Source of the DNA: Vulcanimicrobiota bacterium
Lineage (GTDB): Bacteria > Vulcanimicrobiota > Xenobia > Xenobiales > JADMJV01
Assembly (NCBI GenBank): GCA_050250895.1
Contig: JBFWNU010000001.1
Location: 2,150,210 to 2,214,209 of the forward strand
Direction: 5' to 3'
DNA length: 64,000 nucleotides
Shown here one piece after another: positions 9,505-22,400 of this stretch. Each line of letters begins with the position of its first letter. Position 1 is the first letter of the stretch. The position numbers and the translations under genes are program-made. The notes below the pieces were generated by a model. That model saw nothing but the letters and a program-made list of their open reading frames with translations, was not told the origin of the DNA and did not search any database.

Positions 9505-10410
9505 TTGCCTTGGTCGGGCCGGCGGGCCGGCGGGCCCAACCGGGGTTCACCCCGTGATTTCACGGTGTGGACAAGCTTTCAGCGTCGATTCAGGGCCGCC
9601 TGGCAAGCTGGGGGCATGATTGGTTCCGTGTCCGCATTTCGCCCCGGGCTGCCGGCCCGCACCGCCAGCAAGGCTACGGATGAACTCGAGCAGCGCATCG
9701 AGATGCTCGAGACCCTGTCTCGTTCTCGTGGGGGCAGCGAGTTGCAGGAGAAGATCAAGCAGACTCGGGCTTTACTCGCCGAGGCTCGCAAGCCCGACCT
9801 GACCTTCAGCGACCAGACGAAGACCGAGGTCCGCGACTATCTCAAGGGCAGTCAGGTACTACCCCAGGCTTTCGACACCCACCAGAACGAGCAACTCGAG
9901 GTTTTCGGCAAGCTCGTCCAACGCGGGATGCACTTCCGCCGTTCCGGTCAGGAATTGCCCCCCGATCAGGCATTTCTCGGGCTCATCGCCAAGCCTTATC
10001 ACGCCCTGGACGAGCAGATCTGTTTCCAGTGCCACCTTCCCCAGGGCATTCGTGCGGTTACCCTCAGGCCCCAATATCTGCCGGCCGTCAACTTCTTTTT
10101 GGAGCGCACCCTCGAGGGCGAGGTCTTCTATCGCAAGCCCGATGCCAAGTCGTCGATGTTCGACCCCCAGCCCAATCGCGACGGCTATGTCGAGATCAAG
10201 ACCGTAGATGATTTCGTCAGCCATTATCACGACCATCCCGAGCAAGCCGTGGTTCGCTTTGGGGGAGTTTACACCACTCGAGAGCAGATCCAGAGCGACC
10301 GCGACTACATCGCGGCGCTGGCCGCCAATCACGACAGCAATCTGATCGATGACCTGGGCGACCACCTGATGGTGGGTGGGGTCATGCTCGACAAGAACCC
10401 CGACTGGTAG
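9505..10410 (+). CDS. hypothetical protein (function unknown; convergent with the SagB gene)
   Basis: 301-aa ORF; the likely true start is the internal Met (MIGSVSAF...) at ~9616. No recognisable catalytic motif; contains CFQCH. Confidence 0.4.
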   Translation: MPWSGRRAGGPNRGSPRDFTVWTSFQRRFRAAWQAGGMIGSVSAFRPGLPARTASKATDELEQRIEMLETLSRSRGGSELQEKIKQTRALLAEARKPDLTFSDQTKTEVRDYLKGSQVLPQAFDTHQNEQLEVFGKLVQRGMHFRRSGQELPPDQAFLGLIAKPYHALDEQICFQCHLPQGIRAVTLRPQYLPAVNFFLERTLEGEVFYRKPDAKSSMFDPQPNRDGYVEIKTVDDFVSHYHDHPEQAVVRFGGVYTTREQIQSDRDYIAALAANHDSNLIDDLGDHLMVGGVMLDKNPDW

Positions 10411-10435: not shown

Positions 10436-11638
10436 CTACATCAAGGCGAACTCGGCCACCGAGCTTTCTTCTTCATAGACTGTCCCGGCCAGGCGGCAGA
10501 ACAGGTCAGAGTCGCCGTAGCCGAGGGCGCAGACCGAGAGGCCCAGGGCGGTGGCCACCAGATACATCGTTTGGAGGATGGCTCCGGCGTTCTTGAGGGC
10601 CAGCGAGTAGGCGATGGCGCTGTATTTCCAGGCCAGCGCGGGAAAGCGGGCCGCCATCGTGACCACCACCGCGGGCGGACGCTCGATACCCAGGGCCCAG
10701 GCGGCGTTGAACAGCATATCGAGGCGAGCCTGGGGGGCCGAGGAGAAGAGTTCCAGAGTGTGGTCCAGGGGATCGTAGCGGTAAAAGCCCGGCTCGAGCC
10801 CGACGCAGGCTCCCACCGTCAGATAGAGTTCTTGCTCGAAGATGGCTCCGGCGCTGGCGAAGGGGCGCAGCTTGAGGCCCGGCTCCTGGGCCCGGGCGCA
10901 GTAGTGCAGAAAGTCTCCCAGGCGTCCAAGGTCCAGGGGGGGTTGGCCGGGTTGGCGGCGGCTGCGGCGGTTGGCCAGCACCTCGTCGAGAGCTTGAGCG
11001 AGACGACCGTTGGGAGGGCCCAGAGCCAGGCGACCCTGGGGCTGGCGAGGCCGGCGCTGGGGGGGGTCGAGTCGGCCCGCAAAACGGCGGGTCGCTCCCA
11101 TGGGGTGGCGATGGCGGCCCCGTCGGGAGCGGGCGTGGAAGAACAGGTCGTGGAATTCCCAGACGGCCAGGTGAGGCGCTTCATCTTCGTCCGGCCCGGT
11201 GACGTGGAGGCCGCACTCGGCCAGCAGCTGGCAACCCCAATCCGGGACCAGCAGGGCGGGCAAAGCGCACGGGTCGAGGACCACAATCCTGGCCAGGGCC
11301 CGGGGTGACTCGATCAGCAGCAGGCGACCCTCGCGCCGGCAACAGGCAAAGCGCGACAACCGATAGGTTGCCTCGGGTTGGTAGGCCAGGGCTTGATAGT
11401 AGGGCGAGAGCAGTTGGCGGGCCAATCTTGGACCCTCGGCGGTGACCAGCACTTCTTCCAGGCAACCGTTGCGCAGCAACAGTTCGGCCCGGGTCAACAG
11501 TTCCACGGCCTGGTGGGGGGCAAGGGCGGTCAGCTGTTGACGGGTCAGGCCCTGCTCGAGGTCGGGGCTCAGTTCTGTCCATTGCCGAGGATCAGCTCCG
11601 GCAATCGCCCGCAGACGCACTTCAGACGTTGAGGTCAA
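10436..11638 (-). CDS. SagB-type FMN-dependent dehydrogenase (nitroreductase fold; TOMM azoline oxidase) with ~190-aa N-terminal extension
   Basis: C-terminal half has the nitroreductase/SagB pattern (PSAGAIFEQELYLTV...AWKYSAIAYSLALKNAGAILQTMYLVATALGLSVCALGYGDSDLF). The 5' end overlaps the upstream YcaO gene by 17 nt, indicating translational coupling. Confidence 0.8.
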   Translation of the reverse strand: MTSTSEVRLRAIAGADPRQWTELSPDLEQGLTRQQLTALAPHQAVELLTRAELLLRNGCLEEVLVTAEGPRLARQLLSPYYQALAYQPEATYRLSRFACCRREGRLLLIESPRALARIVVLDPCALPALLVPDWGCQLLAECGLHVTGPDEDEAPHLAVWEFHDLFFHARSRRGRHRHPMGATRRFAGRLDPPQRRPRQPQGRLALGPPNGRLAQALDEVLANRRSRRQPGQPPLDLGRLGDFLHYCARAQEPGLKLRPFASAGAIFEQELYLTVGACVGLEPGFYRYDPLDHTLELFSSAPQARLDMLFNAAWALGIERPPAVVVTMAARFPALAWKYSAIAYSLALKNAGAILQTMYLVATALGLSVCALGYGDSDLFCRLAGTVYEEESSVAEFALM

Positions 11639-13712
11639 CAGGGTTCACCTCGGCTTCGGGAGTGGAGGCGGTGAGCCAACCCATGGCCACCGGGATGTCG
11701 TAGAGGCGCCCCGGAGCCAGGCGACGCCAGTGGTGGCGCATGCCGGGCACCACCACTCGGGCCACGGGCAGGCCGACATCCGAGCGAGTCAGGTCGACCA
11801 CCAGCATCTCGAGCCCGCGGGCGGCTACCAGTTCGTTGATGGTGGCCAGCGGATCGGGCCAATCCGGCAGCCGCAGGTCTTGCCAGGGCCGTCGCTCGGC
11901 ACCGGGGCGAAGATAGGCCCAATCGTCTACGCACAGGTTATAAGAGCTGAGTTCGTCGCGCTCGGGCAGGCCGCGGCCGGGGCGCTGGGCCTGGGAAAGG
12001 GGTTGGGGCAGGAACTGGTTCATCTCGGTGAGGGCGCGCATGATGGCCTGGCGAGGGTCGTGGTGAGCTCCGAAAGCCAGCGTGAGCTGGTCGGGCTCGG
12101 GTGCGCGGCGGCGGCTGACGGCCACGCAGGCTGGGATGGCGAAGTCGGCGGTCACATCCAGCACCCAGAAATCGCGGTCCATCTGGTCATAGGCCCGACG
12201 CAGGCGCCCGAGATAGTCGTCATCCAGGCCGGTCAGGTCAATCTCGGGGCGGGTCAGCCGGTGATACCACCACATGGCCACGCTGTCTCGCTCGACCAGT
12301 TCGAAAAAACCCTGGACCACGGCGTCCTCGAAGCTCGCCCCGGCGGCGCAGCCGTTGGATTCACCCACTGTGTAGAGGTGGTCGGCTTCGGTGTAGCCAT
12401 AGTGGACAAAGCCCGCGGCCAGATAGCGCCAGCCTTGGTGGGTCAGCGACCAGGCCTTTACCCAACGGATTGGCTGGTTCTCGTCGAGGGGGCGGGGCAC
12501 TCGGAGCTTGGGCGAAGAAACGCGGCCGCCCCCCTGCTCGAACTGGCGCTGGCTAAAGAGCATACAATGGTTGGGATGGATGGCCCGCTCGCCCAGTTCG
12601 AGACAGCTGGCCACGCGGTGAGGCTCTTCGCCGCGCCACAGCGAGCTGTGGCGCTCGAGGGCTTCGGCCAGCGCACTGACCCGGGCCTGGGCCGCGGTGG
12701 GTCCCTTCCCCCCCGCGAAGCTCTCGCGTCGGGTCTTCCACTGCTCAAGACTTTTGGCCAGCTGAGGGCGCTGGTAGGTCGAGCGAAAGACGTGCAAATT
12801 GTGGCTCAGTAAGGGCTCGAGGCGGCTGACCAAACCGGTCAGCGGGCTGACGTGGTGGCTATAGGTTTGGTAGAAGGCCTCAGCATCGAGCTGGCGGGAT
12901 AGGTTGGCCGTGCCGAGCCGCGGCGGCCCCGGCTGGCCAGGCGCTTGTCCGCAACGGTGGCATTGCGGACGTCTTATCACGGTGTGCTCGTGACTCTGGC
13001 CGGTAGCGGTGGCGAAGGTCATCAGCTTCTCGAGTCCCGCTCCGGTGGCAGCCCGGATCAGCAACTTGTTGACCACCAGATTGTAGACCAGGGCCAGCGA
13101 GGTGGGCAGGGTTGGGGCGGGGGTCGGCCGAGAAACCACCAGGCAGCGCGGCTCGCGGTTGCGTTCGAGGCGGTGGGCCAGGCAGTGCCAGCAGGCTCCG
13201 GGCTCGCCCAGCACCGGACCCAGCCAGGCCTCGACTCCGCCGGGCTTGACCAAGAAGAAGGGGCCTTGCAATTCGCCCAGCTCTGGTTGGAGATAGTCGT
13301 CCACCAACACCACCAGGAGGCCTCCGTCGACCCCGACACTGGCTGACTTGAAGGCCTCCAGCAGTGGCTCGTCGGGTTGGCTCGAGAGATTCACCACGTT
13401 CACCGACAGGGGTGGGGGGGCGAGGTCCTGGGCCTGCCAGTACGGGTGCGTGTCGTGGTTGACCAGCAGGCTGTCGACCTTGAGTTGGACCACCGCCTCC
13501 AGCAATTGGTGCGAGGGATACTGGCTGGCGAGCGCTCGCACCAATCCGGTGAAATCGAGGCCGCCGTCGAGTAATGGCAGCAGGTCGTTGTAGACTTTAC
13601 CCTCGAGCAGACGATCGCCGCCATCGGTCAACAGTAGAACACCGGCCTGGTCTGGTAGGGGGGCCGCCGTCAGGTGAGCTTTTAGCCGCAGGGGGTGGGC
13701 TAGAAAGTCCAC
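11622..13712 (-). CDS. fused TOMM cyclodehydratase: E1/ThiF-like docking (C) domain + YcaO (D) domain
   Basis: 696 aa. The C-terminal half carries the YcaO ATP-binding signature (ESNGCAAGASFEDAVVQGFFELVERDSVAMWWYHR) and a proline-rich C-terminus typical of azoline-forming YcaOs. The N-terminal half is Rossmann-like E1-type without an obvious glycine loop, as in SagC/PatD N-domains. Begins 3 nt after the precursor ORF stop. Confidence 0.85.
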   Translation of the reverse strand: MDFLAHPLRLKAHLTAAPLPDQAGVLLLTDGGDRLLEGKVYNDLLPLLDGGLDFTGLVRALASQYPSHQLLEAVVQLKVDSLLVNHDTHPYWQAQDLAPPPLSVNVVNLSSQPDEPLLEAFKSASVGVDGGLLVVLVDDYLQPELGELQGPFFLVKPGGVEAWLGPVLGEPGACWHCLAHRLERNREPRCLVVSRPTPAPTLPTSLALVYNLVVNKLLIRAATGAGLEKLMTFATATGQSHEHTVIRRPQCHRCGQAPGQPGPPRLGTANLSRQLDAEAFYQTYSHHVSPLTGLVSRLEPLLSHNLHVFRSTYQRPQLAKSLEQWKTRRESFAGGKGPTAAQARVSALAEALERHSSLWRGEEPHRVASCLELGERAIHPNHCMLFSQRQFEQGGGRVSSPKLRVPRPLDENQPIRWVKAWSLTHQGWRYLAAGFVHYGYTEADHLYTVGESNGCAAGASFEDAVVQGFFELVERDSVAMWWYHRLTRPEIDLTGLDDDYLGRLRRAYDQMDRDFWVLDVTADFAIPACVAVSRRRAPEPDQLTLAFGAHHDPRQAIMRALTEMNQFLPQPLSQAQRPGRGLPERDELSSYNLCVDDWAYLRPGAERRPWQDLRLPDWPDPLATINELVAARGLEMLVVDLTRSDVGLPVARVVVPGMRHHWRRLAPGRLYDIPVAMGWLTASTPEAEVNPVDLNV

Positions 13713-13715
13713 CTC

Positions 13716-13943
13716 TTACGAGGCGGAATAGGTGCAGCCGCAGCTGTCGCAGCCGCCATCACAGCCGTCGGTGCCCGGACCAGCGTTGACCGCCAGGGTT
13801 TGGCGGATATCCAGTTCTCGCATGGCGGGGGTGATCCAGGGCTTTTTGCTATCGGCTGCGTCCATCTTCGCAAGTTCTTCGAAGGTGCTTAGCCTCCTTC
13901 TGGGGTTGACCGCTTGGATTGGCAAAGATACCATGCCGTCCAT
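13716..13943 (-). CDS. RiPP precursor peptide (leader + Cys/Ser/Thr/Asp-rich C-terminal core ...GTDGCDGGCDSCGCTYSAS)
   Basis: Small ORF immediately 5' of, and co-oriented with, the YcaO-SagB operon. C-terminal 19 residues contain 4 Cys, 4 Ser/Thr and 3 Asp in Gly-rich spacing, then stop. An alternative in-frame start at 13865 (MDAADSKKPWITPAMRELDIRQTLAVNAGPG...) gives a 49-aa peptide and avoids overlap with the divergent kinase gene. Confidence 0.6.
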   Translation of the reverse strand: MDGMVSLPIQAVNPRRRLSTFEELAKMDAADSKKPWITPAMRELDIRQTLAVNAGPGTDGCDGGCDSCGCTYSAS

Positions 13944-14796
13944 GGCCAGTCGCTACCGCGCCTTCGAACTCGAAATCACCTCTGAATTCCCCCTTCCAGC
14001 CGCGCCCGGCAGTGGCGACCTCGAGGCGGACGTAACCATCGTGGCGGGCCGGGTGCCCGGGAGTCTGAGGTTTCCGTCGGACACTGGTTTGTTATTTCAG
14101 GCGGCTCCCGATGAATTCTTGCTGTCGGTCGCGGGCATTGCCCGTTACTATGTCGAGGCGGGTCATCAGATCACCGTCGAGCCGGCCGCGGGCGCCAAAG
14201 CCGACGCGGTCGAGGTTTTTCTCTCGGGCTCCGCCATGGGGGCCCTATTGCATCAGCGCGGCCTGCTGGCCTTGCATGCCTCGGCGGTCGCCCTGAGAGA
14301 TATGGCCGTCGTGTTCGCTGGACCCTCGGGGGCCGGCAAATCGACCCTGGTGAGCACCCTGATAGGGCGTGGCTACGAGATCCTTTGTGACGATATCTGT
14401 GTCCTTCGCCAGGACCTGGTGTTGCCGGGTTATACCCGCCTGAGGCTCTGGAAAGATAGCCTGGAGGGATTGGGCCTCCAACCCGGGCGACGGATCCGCG
14501 AGGGTATCGAGAAGTTCGAGTTCGACCACTCGGGTCGCGCCGGCTCGCTGCCCTGTCGGCAACTGTTTTTGCTTGGCTCAGGAGAAGCCGTCATCGAGCC
14601 GGGCAGCCGTCTCCAGCATCTTATTCGCAACACCTATCGGCGCCGCTATTTGCGGGGTCTGGGCCGGCAGGAGCAACACTTTCAGGCCTGCGCCCGGCTG
14701 GCCGGTCGGCTGCCCATGGCCTGGCTCGAGCGCGGCCGCGTGTTCGGACAGCTGCCCGGGCTGCTGGAGGAATGGACGGGTGCGGCCAGGGGATGA
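13933..14796 (+). CDS. HprK C-terminal-domain-like P-loop serine kinase (RiPP-associated HPr kinase homologue)
   Basis: Walker A GPSGAGKST embedded in AVALRDMAVVFAGPSGAGKSTLVSTLIGRGYEILCDD, as in the HPr kinase/phosphorylase C-domain. The annotated ORF starts at 13732; the start is chosen at the internal Met 13933, divergent from the precursor. Confidence 0.6.
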   Translation: MPSMASRYRAFELEITSEFPLPAAPGSGDLEADVTIVAGRVPGSLRFPSDTGLLFQAAPDEFLLSVAGIARYYVEAGHQITVEPAAGAKADAVEVFLSGSAMGALLHQRGLLALHASAVALRDMAVVFAGPSGAGKSTLVSTLIGRGYEILCDDICVLRQDLVLPGYTRLRLWKDSLEGLGLQPGRRIREGIEKFEFDHSGRAGSLPCRQLFLLGSGEAVIEPGSRLQHLIRNTYRRRYLRGLGRQEQHFQACARLAGRLPMAWLERGRVFGQLPGLLEEWTGAARG

Positions 14797-15632
14797 GGCG
14801 GCTGGTCTGGCTGGCGTCTTACCCGAAGTCGGGAAACACCTGGTTTCGAGCCTTCCTGCGGGCCCTGTTCAGCGGCTCGGTCACTCTTAACGCGCTGGGC
14901 TTCGAGCACTCGGGACGGCGTCGCGACTATGACGAGCTACTGGGCATCGAGACGGCTTATCTTCACGATCATGAACTCGAGCTGCTGCGGCCGGAGGTCT
15001 ACCGGGCCAAAGCGCGCGAGTGCCCGCACCCGGCCCTGGTGGTCAAGACCCACGAGGGCTACCGCAAGCTCGGCGACGGCGGTTGCTTGTTTCCTCCCGA
15101 GTGTACTCGGGGAGTGGTCTATCTGGCCCGCAATCCTCTGGACGTGGCGGTGTCTTACGCCTTTCATCTGGAAGAGGGCGACTTCGATCAGGCTATCGCC
15201 AAGATGGGCAGCCAGCAGTCCTGGGGTATGGCTCGCGACCGCTACAGCCATCAGACCAGCCAGTTGCTGCCGGACTGGAGCACCCACGTCTCGGGCTGGC
15301 TCGACAATCACGAATTGCCGGTGCATCTGGTTCGGTATGAAGCACTGCTCGCGCAACCCGAGGCGACCTTCGCCGAGGCCCTGGCCTTTCTCGGGCTGGA
15401 GTACTCGCCGGAGCAGGTATCCCAGGCCGTCGAGTTGAGCAGCTTCGAGCGCTTGCGTGAGCAGGAGCAGCGACAGGGCTTCTGGGAGAAAATGCGAGTC
15501 GGGGTCGAGTTCTTTCGGCGCGGCCAGGCGGGCCAATGGCGTCAACACTTGAGTCCTGAGCAGAGGGACAGGGTGTTGTCCCAGCACCACAACGTGATGG
15601 CCAGACTGGGCTATCTTCCGGAGGGTGACTAG
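14772..15632 (+). CDS. PAPS-dependent sulfotransferase family protein
   Basis: 5'-phosphosulfate binding loop YPKSGNTW, followed by the RNPLDVAVSY 3'-phosphate-binding region. The alternative start at ~14793 forms an ATGA overlap with the kinase stop. Confidence 0.75.
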   Translation: MDGCGQGMRRLVWLASYPKSGNTWFRAFLRALFSGSVTLNALGFEHSGRRRDYDELLGIETAYLHDHELELLRPEVYRAKARECPHPALVVKTHEGYRKLGDGGCLFPPECTRGVVYLARNPLDVAVSYAFHLEEGDFDQAIAKMGSQQSWGMARDRYSHQTSQLLPDWSTHVSGWLDNHELPVHLVRYEALLAQPEATFAEALAFLGLEYSPEQVSQAVELSSFERLREQEQRQGFWEKMRVGVEFFRRGQAGQWRQHLSPEQRDRVLSQHHNVMARLGYLPEGD

Positions 15633-15939
15633 CCAAAGAATCGAATCACTCCCCATGGGTTTGGGTAGGGACGCCATTTTGGTGCGACATCGTCACGTGG
15701 TCTCGACCGAGCTACCGGATGGAGAGGCGGCTCTGATGGACATGCAGAGCGGGACCTACTTTCATCTCAACAGTGTGGCTAGCAGGCTGTGGCAGCTGAT
15801 CGCCGAGCCGATCTCACTGGCTCAGGTTTTGACCGCTCTCGAGGATGAGTTCGAAGTCGAAGCGGACCGCTGCCACGACGAGGTGGTCAGCCTGGTGACG
15901 CAGTGGCTCGAGCGTGGCTTGAGCCAGGTCGTCGCGTGA
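15625..15939 (+). CDS. PqqD-family protein (stand-alone RiPP recognition element, lasso-peptide B1-like)
   Basis: ~100 aa. Pattern LMDMQSGTYFHLNSVASRLWQLI...VLTALEDEFEV...VVSLVTQWLERGL typical of PqqD/RRE proteins. Overlaps neighbours on both sides (operon). Confidence 0.75.
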   Translation: MTSQRIESLPMGLGRDAILVRHRHVVSTELPDGEAALMDMQSGTYFHLNSVASRLWQLIAEPISLAQVLTALEDEFEVEADRCHDEVVSLVTQWLERGLSQVVA

Positions 15940-17687
15940 CCCTGGCTGGCTCTTCGGGTAGCCACGGAGTCTATCAGCTGGAATGGCCCGTCACCCCGTG
16001 GTGCCGGGACCGGGTCAGTTTGGTGGAGGGGCTCGAAAGCCGGGGGCTTGCGGTGGGGGGTCACGTGCGTCTGGACTATGGCAAAGAGCTGCAGGCTCGA
16101 CTGGGGCTGGCCGAGGGGACGTCGGCGGCCGAACTGGTGCTGGCCGCCTGGCGAACGCGGGGGCCCGATTGCCTGACGATGCTCTTTGGAGAATTCGCCT
16201 TTGCCGTCTATGACGGCGAGGCCCTCTGGCTGGTTCAATCCCCGTTCGTGCGCTGGCCAATCTACTACACCGAGACTGCCGAGGGCCTGGCCTTTCATTC
16301 CAGCGCCCGCGCCCTGCACCGCCTGCTGGACCGAGCACCTCGACTGCACGAGCGAGCCCTGGCCGCCTGGGCAATTCGGCAGCGTCTGGTGGAACCCAGC
16401 GATACCTTTTTCGAAGGGGTTTCGCGGGTCGAGCCGGCTGGATTGGTGAAGGTGGTCGAGGGGCGGGTGGTGAGCCGCCATTGCTGGTGGAAGCCAGTCT
16501 GGAGTCCGGCCCCGGCCGGTCGCGACCTGGCCGAGCTGGCTGCCCACCTCACCGATCAGGCCGTTCGCTCGCGGTTGGGCAGTCGACCGGTCGGGTGCTA
16601 TCTGAGCGGAGGCCTGGACTCGAGCACTCTGACGGCCCTGGCCTGCCGGGCGCTAGGGCAGCAGGGGCGCCGCCTGATAGCCTTCTCTTCGGTCTTGCCG
16701 CCCGGATACGCCGGCCCGGAGCGCGACGAGCGAGAGCCGATCGGCGTGATGGCTCGGCATTTCGAACTGGAGGTAGTCGAAGTGGTGCCCACTCGGGGTC
16801 CGACCTGCGACCTGCCGGGCCACACCGAGCTGGCCGAATCCCCCTACCTATTCCCCAAGCAATATGTCTTCGCGGCGATGCTCGAAGCGGCCCGCCGACG
16901 CGGCCTGGCCACCATTCTCGATGGCGGCTTCGGAGAGTTGACCCTCAGCCACGATGCGCCGACGGCCTTTGCTTATCTGGCTCGTCGGGGTCGCTGGCGC
17001 GAGCTGGCCGGATTGGTCCAGGCCTGGGCGCCGCGGGCCGGGCTGCCCTGGTGGAGAGTATGGTTCGCGACGGTGCTCAGGCCGCTTCTTCCAACGCGCC
17101 GAGTTCCGGCGCCCTGGCTGCCTCTGCAGGCCGACTTTGTGGCCCGCCAGGGTCTTCGCCCTCGGTTTGAAAGGCCCCGCGCCCAGGGGTGGTTGCCACC
17201 GATGGAAGGGCTGACATCGGTCCTGACCGCGGTAGGAAGCAGCGCCCTGCCGTTCTATGACCGCCATTTCGGGGTCGAGGTGCACAAGCCGTTTCTCGAC
17301 CGTCGCCTGATCGAGTTCTGCCTGACGCTCGACCCGGCCGACTTCTGGCTCGACGGCTGGCGGCGGGGGCTGGTGCGCCAAGCCATGCGCGACATCCTGC
17401 CGCGGGCCATCGTCGAGCGGACCGATCGGGGCGCTTTCGCGCCCGACTTCTTTGCGCGCTTTCGCCAGGGAGCTCCGGCCTTGCGAGCCGAGTTTGGGTC
17501 TCAGGGGCCCACCGATCTGGCCGCCCACTACTTCGACCTGGAAAGCCTGAGAAAGCTGCTTGACCAGCTCACCAGCCGTCCCGCCAGCGAGAAGTCACCC
17601 CAGGGAGCCCAGGCCAAGCAGGTTCTGCTGCGCAGCCTGGGGGGCGTCCGCTTTCTACGAAGTCTTCACTCCCAACCCGTCCAGTGA
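15903..17687 (+). CDS. asparagine synthetase (AsnB)-like PP-loop ATP-pyrophosphatase (lasso-cyclase / amidotransferase-like)
   Basis: PP-loop VGCYLSGGLDSST. N-terminal Ntn-glutaminase-like fold (GEFAFAVYDGEALWL) lacks the catalytic N-terminal Cys, as in lasso-peptide lactam synthetases. 594 aa. Confidence 0.8.
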   Translation: MARAWLEPGRRVTLAGSSGSHGVYQLEWPVTPWCRDRVSLVEGLESRGLAVGGHVRLDYGKELQARLGLAEGTSAAELVLAAWRTRGPDCLTMLFGEFAFAVYDGEALWLVQSPFVRWPIYYTETAEGLAFHSSARALHRLLDRAPRLHERALAAWAIRQRLVEPSDTFFEGVSRVEPAGLVKVVEGRVVSRHCWWKPVWSPAPAGRDLAELAAHLTDQAVRSRLGSRPVGCYLSGGLDSSTLTALACRALGQQGRRLIAFSSVLPPGYAGPERDEREPIGVMARHFELEVVEVVPTRGPTCDLPGHTELAESPYLFPKQYVFAAMLEAARRRGLATILDGGFGELTLSHDAPTAFAYLARRGRWRELAGLVQAWAPRAGLPWWRVWFATVLRPLLPTRRVPAPWLPLQADFVARQGLRPRFERPRAQGWLPPMEGLTSVLTAVGSSALPFYDRHFGVEVHKPFLDRRLIEFCLTLDPADFWLDGWRRGLVRQAMRDILPRAIVERTDRGAFAPDFFARFRQGAPALRAEFGSQGPTDLAAHYFDLESLRKLLDQLTSRPASEKSPQGAQAKQVLLRSLGGVRFLRSLHSQPVQ

Positions 17688-18040
17688 GCTTCCCAGCTGC
17701 CATCATCGCGCCGAAAGACGACCCAGCTTCTGACCCGATACATTTGCCCTTCCTCGATCCAGGTGACGGGGTGCGAACTGACGTAGCGCTGGACCTGTTC
17801 GTCGGTGAACGTGCGCACGGTCACCTTCGGGGGTGGTCGGTGGGCCGGGGCAGGCGCTGACTGGACCGGCGCCTCGGCCACCTGCGTGGCTACCGGTTGC
17901 TGGGGTTGGTGCGGGGCCGAGCCGGGAGCCAGGGCCAGCGAGAGTAAGCACATCAAGACGACAAAGGCGAGAACGTAGCGCACTGGCTTAGATTCTGTGC
18001 CCACTTCAAGCGGTCCTCGTTGGAGGTCCTGGGCGCCCAT
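17666..18040 (-). CDS. hypothetical small exported/membrane-anchored protein
   Basis: Hydrophobic N-terminal segment ([19 protein letters not shown]) followed by a Pro/Ala/Gln-rich linker. Overlaps the ends of both neighbours; the real start is probably internal. Confidence 0.3.
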
Positions 18041-20296
18041 CCACGGAAGGAACCGGCGGGGTCATCAGAGATGCGACAAGAGGTCAATTTGACCGGCGAG
18101 GGTTTTCAGCTCGAAATAGAGCGGGGCCGATTTGAATGGCCCGGCGACGGGTCATTGCGCTTCTATGGGATTCCTGGGGCGTATCTTTGGCTTGACCCTT
18201 CCATGAAGATGATGCTACTGCCCTTCGTGCAAGAGGTCGGTAGAGATCTATTCACTCTGTTGGTGGCCCGGTCATCGAGTCACGGTACCCGCGAAGACTA
18301 CGAACAGATGGTCAACGAGCTGGCCCCCACCTTCGACCAGGGCTTTTTGGCCTGGGGTGAGGCCGTTTCGACCGCTGGCTGGGGACGCTTTGAGCTGTGC
18401 GAGTGCCAGCCCGAGCGGTGCCACGCGGTGGTAATCATCCGCAACGCCTGGGAGCGCATTATGCAAGCCGGCCTGGCCGCCGACGAACGCTGGGGATGCC
18501 CTTTCCTGCAAGGCAAGATCATCGGCATCTTTTCCCATGCTTTCGGCCGCAACTGTTGGGCCGACGAGACCCGGCGCGACGACCTGGGCGAGCACGATGT
18601 GGCCTTCACGGTGGCCCCCTCGACCAAGACCATCGAAACCGAAATCGAGTTGCTCCGCCAGGCCAGTATGCAAGAGCGCGAGCGGGCCCTGGCCGCCGAG
18701 GTGCGCAAGAAGACCGACGAGTTGCAAGAGGCCCGGGCCGCCCTGGAAGAGTATTCTCGCCAACTCGAGACCAAGGTGGCCGCGCGCACCCGCGAGCTCG
18801 AGCGAAGCAACCTGCAATTGCGCGAGGCCAAAGCCAAGGCCGAAGAGGTCAACGAACTCAAGTCGATGTTCCTGGCCAGCATGAGCCATGAGATCCGCAC
18901 CCCCATGAACGGCGTGATCGGCATGACCAGCCTGCTCGAACGCACCGAACTCGATAGCGACCAGCGCGAATTCGTCGAGATTATTCGCAAGAGTGGCGAC
19001 TCGTTACTCAATATCATCAATGACATCCTCGATTTCACCAAGATCGAGGCTGGCCGGATCGACCTCGAGTCTCTGCCTTTCCAGCCCGAGGATGTGCTCG
19101 AAGAGGCCCTGGACCTGGTAGCCGCCCCGGCCACCGCCAAAGGTCTCGAGTTGGTCTCGCTGGTTTGTGACCAGTTGCCTCGACGGGTCGAAGGCGACCC
19201 TAGCCGGCTGCGCCAGGTGATGGTAAATCTGCTGGCCAACGCCGTCAAGTTCACCCGTCAGGGCGAAGCCCGGATCGAACTCTCGGCCCAATCAGAAGGG
19301 GATTTCTGGCGACTGGTCGGCAAGGTCAGCGACACCGGGCCCGGCATACCTCAGGCTCCTCGTCGCGATCTTTTCGAGCCCTTCGCGGGAGCCGTGATCT
19401 CCCGCGGCAAGGGCACCGGGCTGGGCCTGCCCATCAGCCGCCGTCTCTGTCGCTTGATGGGCGGCGACATCGGCTTCGAGACCGAGGTCGGGCGGGGGTC
19501 GACCTTCACTTTTTCGGCCCTCGTCCGAGCCCTTCCCAGCCAGGAGTACGAGCCTGAATTGACCGGTGCCGACATTCTGGTGATCGAGCCTGACCAGGGC
19601 CTTGGGGCCAGCCTGGTGGGGATGGTAGAGCGCCTGGGGGGCAAGGCTCGCCGATTGGCGGCCCCACCTCAGAGTTGGGGTCAAGAAGACGCGGTGTTGG
19701 TCAATTGGGCCGTTGGCAGCCAGCTCAAAGACTGCCCTCTACCAGTCGTGTTACTGGCTCCGCTCGGTTGTTCCAAGCGACCCGAACACGCCCTGACCCT
19801 GGTCCACAAGCCGGTCAAACGCTCCACGCTGGTGCGAGCGCTCAGGCCTCTCATCAAGCCGGGCGTAACTCGCCAGTCGCTGGACGACGGCGCCCAGAAT
19901 GGCGAGTTCTCTGGCCTCCGGGTTCTGTTGGTCGAGGACAATCTGGTCAACCAGAAGGTGGCCAGAATGATGCTGGCCCGACTGGGCATTCGAGCCGATC
20001 TGGCCAGCAACGGTCTGGAAGCGATCGAGGCGGTGGGGCGGCAACCTTACGATCTCATCCTCATGGATATTCAGATGCCTGAACTCGACGGCATCGGGGC
20101 CACCCACCGCATTCGCGACTGGGAAGAGCGAGAATCCCACCCGCGCCAGCGGATCGTGGCCGTCACCGCCGGGGCCATGGAGTCAGACCGCCAGCGCTGT
20201 CACCGAGCCGGGGTCGACGCCTTTTTGTCCAAGCCGTTCAAGTTACCCGAACTGGAACGGGCTATCCGAGCAGTTTTGCGGGAACCGCGAGGCTAG
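18020..20296 (+). CDS. hybrid sensor histidine kinase / response regulator with N-terminal uncharacterised sensory domain
   Basis: HisKA H-box [18 protein letters not shown]. HATPase_c (N, G1, G2 boxes: [15 protein letters not shown]). C-terminal receiver domain ([10 protein letters not shown]...[14 protein letters not shown]...K). Coiled coil before HisKA. Probable start at the internal Met (~18071). Confidence 0.85.
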
Positions 20297-20303
20297 TTCC
20301 TCG

Positions 20304-22400
20304 ATGGAGAGCCCCTTTCAGGGCAAGGTGATTCGTTTCTTCAAGGAGCGGCTGGCCGCCACCGATGGCTATGAGCATCGCACTGCCCAGCTGGAAATGA
20401 CGGCGGCCGTGGCCTGGGCCATCGAGAATGAAGAGCTGCTGGTGGTCGAAGCCGGCACCGGCACCGGGAAGTCGCTGGCCTACCTCGTTCCCGCTCTGCT
20501 GTGGGGGGCCACCAGTCACAAGCCGGTCATCGTCTCGACCCGCACGCTCAACTTGCAGCAGCAGATTGTCGAACACGACCTGCCGCGGTTGGCCGGGTTG
20601 CTCAGTTTCGTTCCCGAGGTGGTCCAGGCTCGGGGGTGGTCCAACTACGTCTGTCTTCGGCGCTTGTATGGCTTGCCCGGTTCGGGGGCCCCGGCCGAGC
20701 TCGAAACCGAGGCGCAGGCTCTCACCGAGCAGCTCTCCAGGGGAGCGTCGGGCATTCGCCAGGAGCTCGAGGTGGATCCGGCGTTGTGGAATCGCATCCA
20801 CTGCGACTCGAGCGCATGTGGACGCCAGAGCTGTCCCTATTATGAAGACTGTTACTTCTTTCAAGAGCGGCGCAAGTTGGAGCGGGCCGACCTGGTGGTG
20901 ACCAATCACTCGCTGGTGATGTCCGATCTGGCTTTGCGCCAGGCCGGGGCCCCGGGCGTCTTGCCCGATCGTAGTTGCCTGGTGCTTGACGAAGGCCATC
21001 ATCTCGAAGAGGTGGCCACCCAGCATCTGGGTCGGTCGTTCGGCAAATACCAGTTTGCTCAATTGATGACCAATCTCTACGATGCCTCGACCGTACTCGA
21101 CAAGTCGGGCTATCTGCCCGGTTTGCGCGAACGGCTGGCCAAGGCCCCCTTAGAGGCCCAGGATAAGCAGAAGGTATTGGCCATCGTCGACCACCAGATG
21201 CTGGCCGCCATTCCTCCTCTCGAGCGGACCGCCGACGAGTTCTTCGAGACGGTGGCCCTGCTCTTGGCCGAAAGCGACGGCAAGCGCCAGTTGCTCAGCC
21301 AGGACTTCGAGCATGAAGTGGGCCAACAGCTGCGTCTGCTGGGGGCCGAGCTGGCCGGCCAGCTGGCCGCCCTGGGACGAGCGTGTGGTGAGGTTTGCGA
21401 ATGTCTGACCGAGGTCGAGATGGTGGGGGCCTCTGAGGTGACCGTCGAGCTGGGCGGTTATGTCTCGCGGCTCAAGGGAATGGCCTCGGACCTCGAGTTC
21501 TGTCTGTTTCCCGAGTCGGAAGACTGGGTCTATTGGGCCCAGGATAGTGCTCGCGACACGGCCCTGGCGGCCACCCCCCTCGAGATCGGGGAGCTGCTTC
21601 GTCAGCATCTGTTCGAAGAGGCCCGCAGCCTGGTGATCACGTCGGCCACCCTGGCCGTCAACCAGAGTCTCAGGTTTTTCGAGGAGCGGGTGGGACTGAG
21701 CGGTTCTTCGCGTCTCAACAGCCTGTGCCTGGAGAGCCCGTTCGATTTTGCCAACCAGGTCTATCTGGGAGTGGCCACCGGTCTGGGCGACCCCGGCTCG
21801 GGAGATTTTCTGCGCCAGGCGATTCCGGCCGTGGTCGATGTGGTCACGGCTTTGCGCGGCAAGAGCTTTTTACTGGTGACCTCGTGGCGCTTGCTCAAGC
21901 AGCTGGAAGGAGAGCTCAGGCCTTTACTAGAGACCGAGGGGATCGGCTTGCTGGTGCAGGGGCAGGCCTCGGGAGGGGCTCTGCTGGAGGCTTTTCGGGG
22001 CGGAGGAGACTATCTGCTGATCGGGACCGACTCGTTTTGGGAAGGGGTCGACGTGCCGGGCGAGGCCCTCAGCTGCGTCATCCTCGGACGCCTGCCTTTT
22101 CGCGTGCCCACCGATCCGGTCGTGGCGGCCCACTCGCGGCGCCTCGAGCGCCAGGGCCAGGATCCGTTTCGCCATTACCAGCTGCCGCTGGCGATTCTCA
22201 AGTTTCGCCAGGGCTTTGGACGTTTGATCCGAACCTCGAAGGACCGGGGAATCGTGCTGATTCTCGACCATCGGGCCCGCACTCGCGGTTACGGGCGGGA
22301 TTTTCTGGCCAGCCTGCCACCTTGCCGGCGGCGGGCCGGCCCGCTCCAGGGTCTGGTGAGAGAGTCGCTCGAGTGGCTGACCGCCGAGCCCGTCTGGTAG
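20304..22400 (+). CDS. dinG: ATP-dependent DNA helicase, DinG/Rad3-like (DEAD_2 family)
   Basis: Walker A VVEAGTGTGKSLAYLVPA. DEGH box (LVLDEGHHL). Conserved Cys residues for the FeS domain (CLRR..C..C..YYEDC). C-terminal helicase motifs (LVTSW.., GTDSFWEGVD). Confidence 0.8.
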   Translation: MESPFQGKVIRFFKERLAATDGYEHRTAQLEMTAAVAWAIENEELLVVEAGTGTGKSLAYLVPALLWGATSHKPVIVSTRTLNLQQQIVEHDLPRLAGLLSFVPEVVQARGWSNYVCLRRLYGLPGSGAPAELETEAQALTEQLSRGASGIRQELEVDPALWNRIHCDSSACGRQSCPYYEDCYFFQERRKLERADLVVTNHSLVMSDLALRQAGAPGVLPDRSCLVLDEGHHLEEVATQHLGRSFGKYQFAQLMTNLYDASTVLDKSGYLPGLRERLAKAPLEAQDKQKVLAIVDHQMLAAIPPLERTADEFFETVALLLAESDGKRQLLSQDFEHEVGQQLRLLGAELAGQLAALGRACGEVCECLTEVEMVGASEVTVELGGYVSRLKGMASDLEFCLFPESEDWVYWAQDSARDTALAATPLEIGELLRQHLFEEARSLVITSATLAVNQSLRFFEERVGLSGSSRLNSLCLESPFDFANQVYLGVATGLGDPGSGDFLRQAIPAVVDVVTALRGKSFLLVTSWRLLKQLEGELRPLLETEGIGLLVQGQASGGALLEAFRGGGDYLLIGTDSFWEGVDVPGEALSCVILGRLPFRVPTDPVVAAHSRRLERQGQDPFRHYQLPLAILKFRQGFGRLIRTSKDRGIVLILDHRARTRGYGRDFLASLPPCRRRAGPLQGLVRESLEWLTAEPVW

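What the first reader, a model, noticed from the sequence alone, without database searches (positions are those of the whole stretch)
10436..17687. Divergent hybrid RiPP locus joining TOMM-type azoline machinery (YcaO + SagB) with lasso-type machinery (AsnB-like + PqqD), a Ser kinase and a sulfotransferase
The minus-strand operon encodes a precursor peptide (13943/13865→13716), a fused E1-like/YcaO cyclodehydratase (13712→11622) and a SagB-type dehydrogenase (11638→10436), with 3-nt and 17-nt junctions. The divergent plus-strand operon encodes an HprK-like kinase, a sulfotransferase, a PqqD-like RRE protein and an AsnB-like protein (13933→17687), all overlapping. YcaO/SagB define thiazole/oxazole peptide biosynthesis. 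PqqD plus an AsnB homologue with a degenerate glutaminase domain are the B1 and C proteins of lasso-peptide clusters, and HprK-like kinases and sulfotransferases are known accessory tailoring enzymes of lasso clusters. No lasso B2 transglutaminase-like protease and no ABC exporter is present. The combination suggests one product carrying azol(in)es plus phosphate, sulfate and/or a macrolactam. I know of no characterised RiPP class with this combination.
Basis: partly seen in the sequence, partly recalled or inferred. Interest (0 to 1): 0.92.

Follow-up and report, generated by a model that had tools for sequence, protein, structure and literature searches.

The report
Rare lasso–thiazole hybrid peptide gene cluster
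An uncultured Eremiobacterota bacterium carries one small peptide gene flanked by the enzyme sets of two normally separate peptide-antibiotic families (ring-forming "lasso" and thiazole-forming), a combination I found nowhere in the literature I searched and at only four places in public sequence data.

Summary
The minus strand has a 49-aa precursor, a fused E1-like/YcaO cyclodehydratase and a SagB/ThcOx-type dehydrogenase. The plus strand has an HprK-like kinase, a PAPS-type sulfotransferase, a PqqD RRE and an AsnB-like protein without the glutaminase Cys.

The two halves belong together:
- Only one precursor is present. It joins a lasso-type leader (WxxPxM, Thr at -2), an Asp 9 residues after the predicted cut, a tail with four Gly/Ser-Cys sites and a C-terminal Ser.
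- The whole arrangement is conserved under purifying selection in two other Eremiobacterota assemblies.
- A distant contig (33-43% protein identity) has the same six enzyme families in shuffled order, with AsnB-like/SagB and PqqD/YcaO gene pairs overlapping. Its precursor shares the AGPGTDG motif, a Cys-rich tail and the C-terminal Ser.

The most likely product is a thiazole-containing, C-terminally phosphorylated and sulfated macrolactam (lasso or branched-cyclic) peptide.

The main gap is the lasso leader peptidase B2. It is absent from the 64-kb window and from all related hybrid loci, so ring formation is inferred, not shown.

I rate this a new variant of known kinds, rare, and not found in the literature I searched.

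The parts
13716..13865 (-). Precursor peptide, 49 aa: MDAADSKKPWITPAMRELDIRQTL | AVNAGPGTDGCDGGCDSCGCTYSAS. The bar marks the predicted cut after Thr(-2)-Leu(-1).
   Evidence: Weak match to the paeninodin-family lasso peptide model NF033524 (19.8 bits, E 4.6e-4, cut-off 27). It is the only W/YxxP-type small ORF in the locus. The core is invariant in L002/L003 apart from 3 substitutions, and all changes in the Cys-rich tail are synonymous. dN/dS is 0.10.
11622..13712 (-). Fused E1-like (RRE plus Zn-tetrathiolate CxxC...CxxC) / YcaO cyclodehydratase, 696 aa.
   Evidence: PF02624 288 bits; TIGR03604 237.8 bits (cut-off 219.25); TIGR03882 79.3 bits (cut-off 36.9). The closest solved structures are the cyanobactin heterocyclases TruD, LynD and MusD, E about 1e-107. 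Residues 8-100 align with their RRE domain.
10436..11638 (-). SagB/ThcOx-type FMN-dependent azoline dehydrogenase, 400 aa. It overlaps the YcaO gene by 17 nt.
   Evidence: TIGR03605 132.9 bits (cut-off 78.4); PF22767 ThcOx 65.8 bits; PF00881 41.4 bits.
13866..13932 (.). 67-nt divergent intergenic spacer between the precursor start and the kinase start. The promoters must therefore extend into the neighbouring coding regions.
   Evidence: One sigma-70-like match at 13906-13934(+), no more than the shuffles give. A conserved GAAGGAGG lies 27 nt upstream of the precursor ATG.
13933..14796 (+). HprK-like peptide Ser kinase, 287 aa.
   Evidence: Weak PF07475, TIGR04352 and ScmC matches. The His-Lys-Asp-Asp motif is intact: LHASAV, GAGKST, LCDD (motif from PMC9266682). 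36% identical to the L006 kinase.
14793..15632 (+). PAPS-type sulfotransferase, 279 aa. The longest ORF starts at 14772.
   Evidence: PF00685 101 bits. The 5'-PSB motif PKSGNTW and the 3'-PB motif RNPLDVAVS are present. The closest solved structures are the glycopeptide sulfotransferases Teg14, Teg12 and StaL.
15655..15939 (+). Discrete PqqD-type RiPP recognition element (lasso B1-like), 94 aa. The longest ORF starts at 15625.
   Evidence: PF05402 60.5 bits. The best NCBIfam match is lasso_PqqD_Bac, 55.3 bits, below its cut-off of 80.
15936..17687 (+). AsnB-like, lasso-cyclase-like ATP-dependent amide-bond-forming enzyme, 583 aa. The longest ORF starts at 15903.
   Evidence: PF00733 119.7 bits. 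The best NCBIfam match is the lasso isopeptide cyclase NF033535, 188 bits, below its cut-off of 525. SGGLDS is present and there is no Cys nucleophile. It is the reciprocal nearest relative of the L006 enzyme.
9616..10410 (+). Conserved convergent neighbour, 264 aa, of unknown function. I do not count it as part of the pathway.
   Evidence: Present in L001-L003 and absent from L006. A rare family with 17 representatives and no conserved catalytic-type residues.

Best explanation
This is one integrated RiPP pathway acting on a single 49-residue precursor.

Proposed steps:
1. The 24-residue leader (WITPAM ... ELDIRQ-T-L) is of the lasso type found in kinase-containing clusters. It is bound by the discrete PqqD RRE and probably also by the RRE domain at the N-terminus of the cyclodehydratase.
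2. While the leader is attached, the fused E1-like/YcaO enzyme cyclodehydrates the four Gly/Ser-preceded Cys of the tail (GC, GC, SC, GC) to thiazolines.
3. The SagB/ThcOx-type flavoenzyme oxidises them to thiazoles (-20 Da each).
4. The HprK-like kinase phosphorylates the C-terminal Ser, as shown for paeninodin-type precursors.
5. The PAPS sulfotransferase adds sulfate, most likely on Tyr22 or a Ser/Thr.
6. The leader is then removed after Thr(-2)-Leu(-1) by a peptidase that is not encoded in the locus.
7. The AsnB-like enzyme adenylates Asp9 of the conserved G-T-D-G motif and joins it to the new Ala1 amine. This gives a 9-residue macrolactam with a 16-residue thiazole-rich tail. The product is either a threaded lasso or a branched-cyclic peptide.

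Shown: gene content, family membership, intact catalytic motifs, conservation and linkage, and the features of the precursor.
Inferred: every chemical step, their order, the sulfation site, leader removal and the topology.
For: Family assignments.

One precursor only, carrying both signatures:
- Its lasso leader resembles that of a B2-containing cluster: L025 KPWSAPHVGELDIRSQTG|S versus window KPWITPAMRELDIRQTL|A.
- It hits NF033524 weakly.
- It has Asp at core position 9 and a Cys-rich tail.

Conservation: the whole cluster is conserved in L002 (YcaO 87% identical) and L003 (80%), with dN/dS 0.08-0.28 for all genes and only synonymous changes in the Cys-rich tail.

Independent second version, L006:
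- The same six families at 33-43% identity in a different gene order.
- AsnB/SagB overlap by 4 nt and PqqD/YcaO overlap by 4 nt.
- Its precursor...RSWKAPSYERLPINLTR|FTAGPGTDGGCGCAGCACTGTPTSCACACACMSSGS, lies directly after YcaO.
- The AsnB-like proteins of the two versions are reciprocal nearest relatives (204-205 bits versus 149 for the next hit to P0124).

Related B2-less cassettes keep Thr(-2) and Asp at position 8-9 in a G-[TA]-D-G context: L079 and L081 (the L081 precursor passes the lasso_leader_L3 cut-off) and L007.

Literature: lasso kinases act on the linear precursor's C-terminal Ser (PMC9266682, PMC8498205). Discrete lasso RREs read [Y/W]xxPx[L/V/I/F/A] (PMC13381572). A lasso C enzyme can cyclise a leaderless core without B1/B2 (PMC6993621).
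Against: - No B2 (transglutaminase-like) leader peptidase is found in the 64-kb window, in L001-L003 or in L006/L158, even at E<=1000. A free N-terminus is required for the lasso macrolactam.
- The AsnB-like protein, the PqqD and the precursor all score below the NCBIfam lasso-specific cut-offs.
- No exporter or immunity gene lies nearby.
- The L006 core has no Tyr yet keeps the sulfotransferase, so the sulfation site is uncertain.
- The L006 YcaO is not the closest relative of the window YcaO, so a single origin of the hybrid is not established.
- A tail stiffened by four thiazoles might not thread.
- No product has been observed.
Confidence: 0.6

Rival explanations
1. The product is a linear azole-containing peptide (LAP) decorated with phosphate and sulfate. 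The AsnB-like enzyme does not make an N-terminal macrolactam. Instead it activates the conserved Asp for another amide-forming reaction (amidation to Asn with free ammonia, or coupling to some other amine), or it acts only as a scaffold. The leader is removed late by a housekeeping protease, as in several LAP pathways.
For: - B2 is absent from every hybrid locus and from most kinase/sulfotransferase cassettes.
- The AsnB-like protein is far below the lasso-cyclase equivalog cut-off (188 versus 525 bits).
- One cassette precursor, L035, has no Asp/Glu at positions 7-9.
- A related family, the LPPs, uses the same RRE and HprK kinase without any cyclase and stays linear (PMC13381572).
- The closest solved relative by sequence is a hydroxyamidotransferase, not a cyclase.
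Against: - The glutaminase nucleophile is missing, as in lasso cyclases.
- Thr(-2) and an Asp exactly 8-9 residues after it are conserved across five otherwise dissimilar precursors. That spacing has no obvious meaning unless the N-terminus produced by cleavage is the nucleophile.
- The best-scoring named family is the lasso cyclase.
Confidence: 0.25
2. Two independent pathways lie back to back by chance. One is a TOMM/LAP operon with its own precursor. The other is a degenerate lasso-like cassette whose precursor and peptidase lie elsewhere or have been lost.
For: - Each module occurs alone in other genomes (L004/L005; L035, L028 and others).
- The two operons are divergently transcribed.
- The YcaO proteins of the window and of L006 are not nearest relatives.
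Against: - The only precursor has a lasso-type leader and ring motif fused to the Cys-rich tail.
- In L006 the modules are interleaved, with overlapping start/stop codons across the module boundary.
- All genes are under purifying selection.
- No second W/YxxP precursor exists in the locus.
Confidence: 0.04
3. The cluster is a non-functional relic of a recombination event.
For: The peptidase and exporter are missing.
Against: - dN/dS is 0.08-0.28 in all genes across three genomes.
- Catalytic motifs are intact.
- There are no frameshifts or internal stops.
- A second, deeply diverged version exists.
Confidence: 0.03

Closest known systems
Paeninodin / pseudomycoidin-type phosphorylated lasso peptide clusters (Bacillota; padeCAKB1B2D, psm)
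   Same: - WxxP leader with Thr at -2.
- Ala1...Asp9-type ring positions.
- A conserved C-terminal Ser.
- An HprK-like kinase with the His-Lys-Asp-Asp motif.
- A discrete PqqD/B1 RRE.
- An AsnB-like C enzyme.
(PMC6993621, PMC9266682)
   Different: - No B2 peptidase and no ABC exporter.
- YcaO cyclodehydratase and SagB dehydrogenase are added.
- The tail is Cys/Gly-rich instead of acidic/aromatic.
- A sulfotransferase is present.
- The phylum is Eremiobacterota.
Kinase + sulfotransferase lasso-like cassettes of Proteobacteria (for example the Sphingobium yanoikuyae SyanK system; here L035 Sphingopyxis, and L011-L047 Pseudohongiella/Pseudomonadales MAGs)
   Same: - The same four families, and in L035 the same order: HprK-SulfoT-PqqD-(A)-AsnB.
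- Leaders such as KPWSAPHVGELDIRSQTG.
- A C-terminal Ser with a nearby Tyr.
- Most of these also lack B2 within 10 kb.

   Different: - None of the 70 genome loci has YcaO or SagB.
- Their cores are not Cys-rich.
- As far as I could find, their products are uncharacterised apart from the in-vitro kinase work (PMC9266682).
Cyanobactin heterocyclase/oxidase pair (TruD, LynD, MusD; ThcOx) and linear azol(in)e peptides such as microcin B17 (the latter from my own knowledge)
   Same: - A fused RRE/E1-like/YcaO architecture, E about 1e-107 to TruD, LynD and MusD.
- A ThcOx-type oxidase domain.
- Gly/Ser-Cys repeat substrate sites.
   Different: - No PatA/PatG-type proteases or macrocyclase.
- The leader is of the lasso type, not the cyanobactin type.
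- An extra discrete RRE, a cyclase-like AsnB, a kinase and a sulfotransferase are present.
Linear polyphosphorylated peptides (LPPs), Bacillota, 2026 (PMC13381572)
   Same: - A discrete RRE plus an HprK-like kinase acting on a leader with a Y/WxxP motif.
- A lasso-related pathway that has lost or replaced the B2 peptidase.
   Different: - LPP clusters lack the cyclase and use a SipW-like signal peptidase and an NTP transferase.
- Here the cyclase-like gene is kept, no SpI-like peptidase is present, and azole machinery is added.
Engineered hybrid RiPPs made with chimeric leaders (Burkhart et al. 2017, as cited in PMC8498205)
   Same: They combine a thiazoline-forming cyclodehydratase with enzymes of another RiPP class on one peptide.
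   Different: Those are laboratory constructs with concatenated leaders, and no lasso combination is cited there. This is a natural cluster whose single short leader would have to serve two RREs.

Membership tests
Lasso peptide biosynthetic cluster | Precursor with a lasso leader: [Y/W]xxPx[hydrophobic] RRE motif and Thr at position -2. | tested here: met
   WITPAM and Q-T-L|A. The motif definition is from PMC13381572. The precursor hits NF033524 weakly. Its leader is near-identical in its C-terminal half to that of the B2-containing locus L025.
Lasso peptide biosynthetic cluster | Asp/Glu at core position 7, 8 or 9 to close the ring with residue 1. | tested here: met
   Asp9 in AVNAGPGTD. It is conserved in L002 and L003, and is Asp8 in L006. 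The rule is from PMC6993621.
Lasso peptide biosynthetic cluster | B1 / PqqD-like RRE. | tested here: met
   PF05402 60.5 bits (cut-off 23.4). The lasso-specific NF033536 scores 55.3 bits, below its cut-off of 80.
Lasso peptide biosynthetic cluster | C protein: Asn-synthetase-like macrolactam cyclase. | tested here: inconclusive
   PF00733 is met. SGGLDS is present and there is no glutaminase Cys. However, NF033535 scores 188 bits against a cut-off of 525, and no activity data exist.
Lasso peptide biosynthetic cluster | B2 transglutaminase-like Cys protease (leader peptidase). | tested here: not met
   A custom HMM built from 27 B2 proteins finds nothing in the 64-kb window, L001-L003 or L006, even at E<=1000. 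No PF13471 is among the called genes. The rest of the 3.95-Mb genome could not be searched.
Lasso peptide biosynthetic cluster | Threaded lariat topology of the product. | not testable with these tools
   Needs isolation, NMR, or protease and heat unthreading assays.
TOMM / linear azol(in)e peptide machinery | YcaO (SagD-family) ATP-dependent cyclodehydratase. | tested here: met
   TIGR03604 237.8 bits (cut-off 219.25); PF02624 288 bits.
TOMM / linear azol(in)e peptide machinery | E1-like / leader-binding partner domain. | tested here: met
   TIGR03882 79.3 bits (cut-off 36.9). The CxxC...CxxC motif is in the sequence. The RRE region aligns with MusD, TruD and LynD.
TOMM / linear azol(in)e peptide machinery | SagB-type FMN dehydrogenase. 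| tested here: met
   TIGR03605 132.9 bits (cut-off 78.4).
TOMM / linear azol(in)e peptide machinery | Cys/Ser/Thr-rich core in an adjacent precursor. | tested here: met
   There are 4 Cys, 4 Ser and 2 Thr in the 25-residue core, 3 nt upstream of the YcaO gene. The L006 core has 8 Cys.
Cyanobactin pathway | PatA/PatG-type subtilisin-like proteases or macrocyclase. | tested here: not met
   No peptidase domain in any cluster ORF or neighbour scanned. None among the called genes of L001-L003 or L006.
Paeninodin-type phosphorylated lasso peptides | HprK-family kinase with the His-Lys-Asp-Asp motif, plus a C-terminal Ser in the precursor. | tested here: met
   LHASAV / GAGKST / LCDD. The precursor ends in ...YSAS. 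The motif and the Ser rule are from PMC9266682.
Paeninodin-type phosphorylated lasso peptides | Precursor passes the NF033524 family model. | tested here: inconclusive
   19.8 bits, E 4.6e-4, against a cut-off of 27.
HPr-rel-A system / SynChlorMet cassette (Haft families) | TIGR04352/TIGR04353 or ScmC/ScmD equivalogs above cut-off, with their partner genes. | tested here: not met
   TIGR04352 38 bits against 200; TIGR04353 24 against 35; ScmC 17 against 125; ScmD 27 against 100. No radical SAM partners are in the window locus.

The most novel reading that the evidence does not exclude
This would be the first natural azole-containing lasso (or lariat) peptide. One short leader would be read by two different RREs: the discrete PqqD, and the built-in RRE of a cyanobactin-like heterocyclase. 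The same core would receive thiazoles, a C-terminal phosphate, a sulfate and an Ala1-Asp9 macrolactam. The leader would be removed by something other than the canonical B2 peptidase. That last point would also explain the many B2-less kinase/sulfotransferase 'lasso' cassettes in Proteobacteria.
Probability: 0.45. Interest if true: 0.8.

Novelty: new variant of a known kind. Interest (0 to 1): 0.68.

Why it matters
Lasso peptides and azole peptides are two of the most exploited RiPP scaffolds. Combining class-defining modifications on one peptide has so far needed engineered chimeric leaders.

A natural pathway that does this would:
- show how one leader can serve two recognition domains;
- give a rigid thiazole-rich tail as a new way to lock or replace lasso threading;
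- provide enzymes that tolerate each other's products, which is useful for combinatorial biosynthesis.

It also exposes a gap. A whole branch of lasso-like cassettes, here and in Proteobacteria, lacks the supposedly essential B2 peptidase. That points to an unknown leader-removal route.

The source phylum, Eremiobacterota, is uncultured and its natural products are essentially unexplored.

Tried and rejected
1. **A B2 peptidase hidden in the locus.** I built an HMM from 27 B2 proteins of the fetched loci and found no hit in the window or the hybrid loci, even with filters off at E<=1000.
2. **The conserved 264-aa neighbour (9616-10410) as a substitute peptidase.** It is a rare family with no conserved Cys, His, Asp or Ser, and it is absent from L006. 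Rejected as an enzyme candidate.
3. **More family members.**
   - The genome-contig scan with the AsnB alignment gave 70 loci, none with YcaO or SagB.
   - The metagenome scan with the same alignment found nothing.
   - A metagenome DNA pattern for AGPGTDGxxGxC gave 76 hits, all random or out of frame.
   - A protein search seeded with the L006 enzyme found no further close relatives.
4. **Loss of the cyclodehydratase's own RRE**, which would have made the discrete PqqD obligatory for it. Rejected: residues 8-100 still align with the RRE domain of MusD, TruD and LynD.
5. **A second precursor for the plus-strand operon.** None was found.
6. **HPr-rel-A and SynChlorMet systems as the identity of the plus-strand cassette.** Scores are far below the cut-offs.
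7. **Literature searches** for natural lasso-plus-YcaO/azole hybrids found none. My recollection that the pseudomycoidin cluster lacks B2 was wrong: it has B1/B2, but they are dispensable when the core alone is expressed.
8. The paeninodin JBC paper (PMC4919450) is not held, so the PadeA sequence could not be quoted.

Full report
**Observation**

Minus strand:
- A 49-codon ORF at 13865->13716.
- After a 3-nt gap, a 696-aa protein at 13712->11622.
- Overlapping that by 17 nt, a 400-aa protein at 11638->10436.

Plus strand, starting 67 nt from the precursor start:
- Four tightly packed genes from 13933 to 17687.
- With the starts used in public gene calls, kinase/sulfotransferase and PqqD/AsnB overlap by 4 nt.

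HMM scans confirm each assignment:
- YcaO: PF02624 288 bits; TIGR03604 237.8 bits against a cut-off of 219.25.
- TOMM leader-binding/docking domain: TIGR03882 79.3 bits against 36.9.
- SagB dehydrogenase: TIGR03605 132.9 bits against 78.4, plus the ThcOx domain.
- Sulfotransfer_1: 101 bits.
- PqqD: 60.5 bits.
- Asn_synthase: 119.7 bits.
- The kinase matches HprK models only weakly. However, it has the P-loop and the complete His-Lys-Asp-Asp motif reported for lasso-peptide kinases (PMC9266682).

Further sequence features:
- The AsnB-like protein has the SGGLDS ATP-pyrophosphatase motif and no N-terminal Cys. Its glutaminase half is therefore inactive, as in lasso cyclases.
- The sulfotransferase keeps both PAPS-binding motifs.
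- Closest solved structures are the cyanobactin heterocyclases TruD, LynD and MusD for the YcaO protein (E about 1e-107). For the sulfotransferase they are the glycopeptide sulfotransferases Teg12, Teg14 and StaL.

**Source**

The identical YcaO and AsnB-like proteins are on record from a Vulcanimicrobiota (Eremiobacterota) MAG with a 3.95-Mb contig.

**The precursor joins the two halves**

The peptide is MDAADSKKPWITPAMRELDIRQTLAVNAGPGTDGCDGGCDSCGCTYSAS.
- The N-terminal part has the WxxPx-hydrophobic motif read by discrete lasso RREs (definition in PMC13381572) and a Thr at -2 of the predicted cut.
- It hits the paeninodin-family lasso precursor model weakly (19.8 bits, E 4.6e-4, below the cut-off of 27).
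- Its C-terminal leader half is nearly the same as the leader of a complete lasso cluster that does have B2, an NTP transferase and an ABC exporter: L025 ...KPWSAPHVGELDIRSQTG|S....
- Counting from the predicted cut, Asp is at position 9, within the 7-9 range required for lasso rings (PMC6993621).
- The rest of the core is a 16-residue tail with four Cys, each preceded by Gly or Ser. It ends in Tyr-Ser-Ala-Ser.
- A C-terminal Ser is the conserved phosphorylation site of kinase-containing lasso clusters (PMC9266682).
- No other W/YxxP-type small ORF exists in the locus.

**Conservation**

Two further Eremiobacterota contigs carry the same seven genes in the same arrangement: L002 (YcaO 87% identical) and L003 (80% identical, GCA_020431725.1).
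- dN/dS between the window and these loci is 0.08-0.28 for every gene, and 0.10 for the precursor.
- In the Cys-rich tail all nucleotide differences are synonymous.

The nearest relative of the AsnB-like protein outside this clade is P0124 (34% identity). It lies on a contig, L006, with the same six enzyme families at 33-43% identity but in a different order: AsnB-like, SagB/ThcOx, sulfotransferase, two HprK paralogues, PqqD, YcaO, precursor, and a B12-radical SAM gene.
- There the AsnB-like and SagB genes overlap by 4 nt, as do the PqqD and YcaO genes. The 'lasso' and 'TOMM' genes are therefore translationally coupled across the class boundary.
- The L006 precursor has the same design: WxxP leader, I-x-x-T-x, the identical AGPGTDG motif, eight Cys and a C-terminal Ser. 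Its sequence is MSEKSMAVDRSREVGEAAAKRSWKAPSYERLPINLTR|FTAGPGTDGGCGCAGCACTGTPTSCACACACMSSGS.
- The AsnB-like proteins are reciprocal nearest relatives: 204-205 bits, against 149 for the next hit to P0124.
- The YcaO proteins are not nearest relatives. Either the hybrid arose once and the YcaO diverged quickly, or it was assembled twice. Either way the association is functional and not accidental.

**Rarity and context**
- A scan of one genome per species, seeded with the AsnB alignment, gave 70 loci and none had YcaO or SagB.
- Two metagenome scans added nothing.
- In the 5.8-billion-protein collection the hybrid AsnB clade has four members.
- The plus-strand cassette alone is common. HprK-SulfoT-PqqD-(precursor)-AsnB occurs in the same order in Sphingopyxis (L035), and in rearranged form in many Gammaproteobacteria MAGs. 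Its precursors end in Tyr-x-Pro-x-Ser.
- Kinases and sulfotransferases have been noted before as accessory genes of lasso clusters (PMC8498205, PMC4289311).

**The missing peptidase**

A B2 HMM built from 27 diverse B2 proteins in the fetched loci finds no B2 in the 64-kb window, in L001-L003, in L006/L158, in L007 or L079/L081, or in most kinase/sulfotransferase cassettes. This holds even without filters at E<=1000.

Yet these B2-less clusters keep Thr(-2) and an acidic residue 8-9 positions later, often in a G-[T/A]-D-G context:
- L079: TQ|STANGTGAD.
- L081: TQ|TGHNSSGTD.
- L007: TR|QQSNHGID and TR|HGATLGAD.

The L081 precursor passes the lasso-leader model cut-off. This spacing is hard to explain unless the N-terminus created by cleavage is the nucleophile. 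I therefore keep macrolactam formation as the most likely role of the AsnB-like enzyme, with leader removal by an unlinked or unknown peptidase.

It is documented that a lasso C enzyme can cyclise a leaderless core without B1/B2 (PMC6993621). A related pathway, the LPPs, replaced B2 with a SipW-like peptidase (PMC13381572). No such gene is present here.

The conserved 264-aa neighbour (9616-10410) is not a plausible enzyme.

**Mechanism proposed** (all steps inferred)
1. The leader is bound by PqqD and by the cyclodehydratase's own RRE, which is retained.
2. Four thiazolines form and are oxidised to thiazoles.
3. The C-terminal Ser is phosphorylated on the linear precursor.
4. A sulfate is added. 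Tyr22 is attractive given the Teg/StaL-like enzyme, but L006 has no Tyr.
5. The leader is removed.
6. An Ala1-Asp9 isopeptide bond forms.

Expected monoisotopic neutral masses:
- Linear core: 2266.79 Da.
- With four thiazoles and the lactam: 2168.67 Da.
- With one phosphate and one sulfate added: 2328.60 Da.

**Comparison and novelty**

The machinery works like a paeninodin-type lasso pathway fused with a cyanobactin/LAP-type heterocyclase-oxidase pair.
- It meets every defining feature tested for TOMM machinery.
- It meets the lasso features except B2, which was tested and not met. The cyclase equivalog score is inconclusive.
- It should therefore not be filed as a canonical lasso cluster.

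Four literature searches found no natural lasso-azole hybrid. The only combination of a cyclodehydratase with another RiPP class that I met there is the engineered chimeric-leader work cited in PMC8498205.

I rate it a new variant of known kinds. It is well supported as a real, conserved, rare hybrid cluster, but its chemistry is untested.

Noticed in passing
window 9616-10410 (+): A 264-aa protein convergent with the SagB gene. It is conserved in L001-L003 (90-94% identity, dN/dS 0.06-0.10). It belongs to a very rare family, with 17 representatives among 1.84 billion. It has no Pfam or NCBIfam match and no conserved catalytic-type residues. Its function is unknown and it is absent from the second hybrid locus, L006.
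   Followed up: partly
L011, L012, L017, L022, L024, L027, L028, L034, L035, L047 (genome-contig loci): Many proteobacterial AsnB-like + PqqD + HprK + sulfotransferase cassettes with lasso-type precursors (ending ...Y-x-P-x-S) have no detectable B2 peptidase within 10 kb. Several carry two HprK paralogues, one lacking the catalytic His or the Asp-Asp pair, plus an Asp/Asn beta-hydroxylase-like ORF (L027 14102-14710; L035 1356-2096).
   Followed up: partly
L006/L158 9030-10349 (-): A B12-binding radical SAM gene ends 3 nt after the hybrid precursor gene of the second cluster. It could be a further tailoring enzyme. No counterpart exists in the window.
   Followed up: no
window 13885-13900 (-), with L002 and L003: A conserved GAAGGAGG lies about 27 nt upstream of the precursor ATG, too far for a standard Shine-Dalgarno spacing. 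The sequence in between is also conserved.
   Followed up: no
window 11622-13712 (-): The cyclodehydratase is about 50 aa shorter than its 35-40% identical relatives (mostly 740-760 aa). Unlike most of them, it has no PF21084 winged-helix call, although its N-terminus still aligns with the RRE of MusD, TruD and LynD.
   Followed up: partly
L007 5877-11350: A related B2-less cluster: HprK-like, PqqD, a TPR/2OG-Fe(II) oxygenase, AsnB-like (33% identical to the window's), two tandem precursors ending in ...DDSAS and ...DDMHS, and a Stf0-like sulfotransferase-like protein.
   Followed up: no
L082-L157 (metagenome pattern hits): The string AGPGTDGRCGRC followed by a stop recurs in many unrelated metagenome contigs. 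It is probably an out-of-frame reading of some conserved gene and is unrelated to the finding.
   Followed up: no
window 18020-22400 (+): Immediately downstream of the cluster lie a hybrid histidine kinase with a receiver domain (758 aa) and a DinG-like helicase (698 aa). The kinase gene is also next to the cluster in L001.
   Followed up: no
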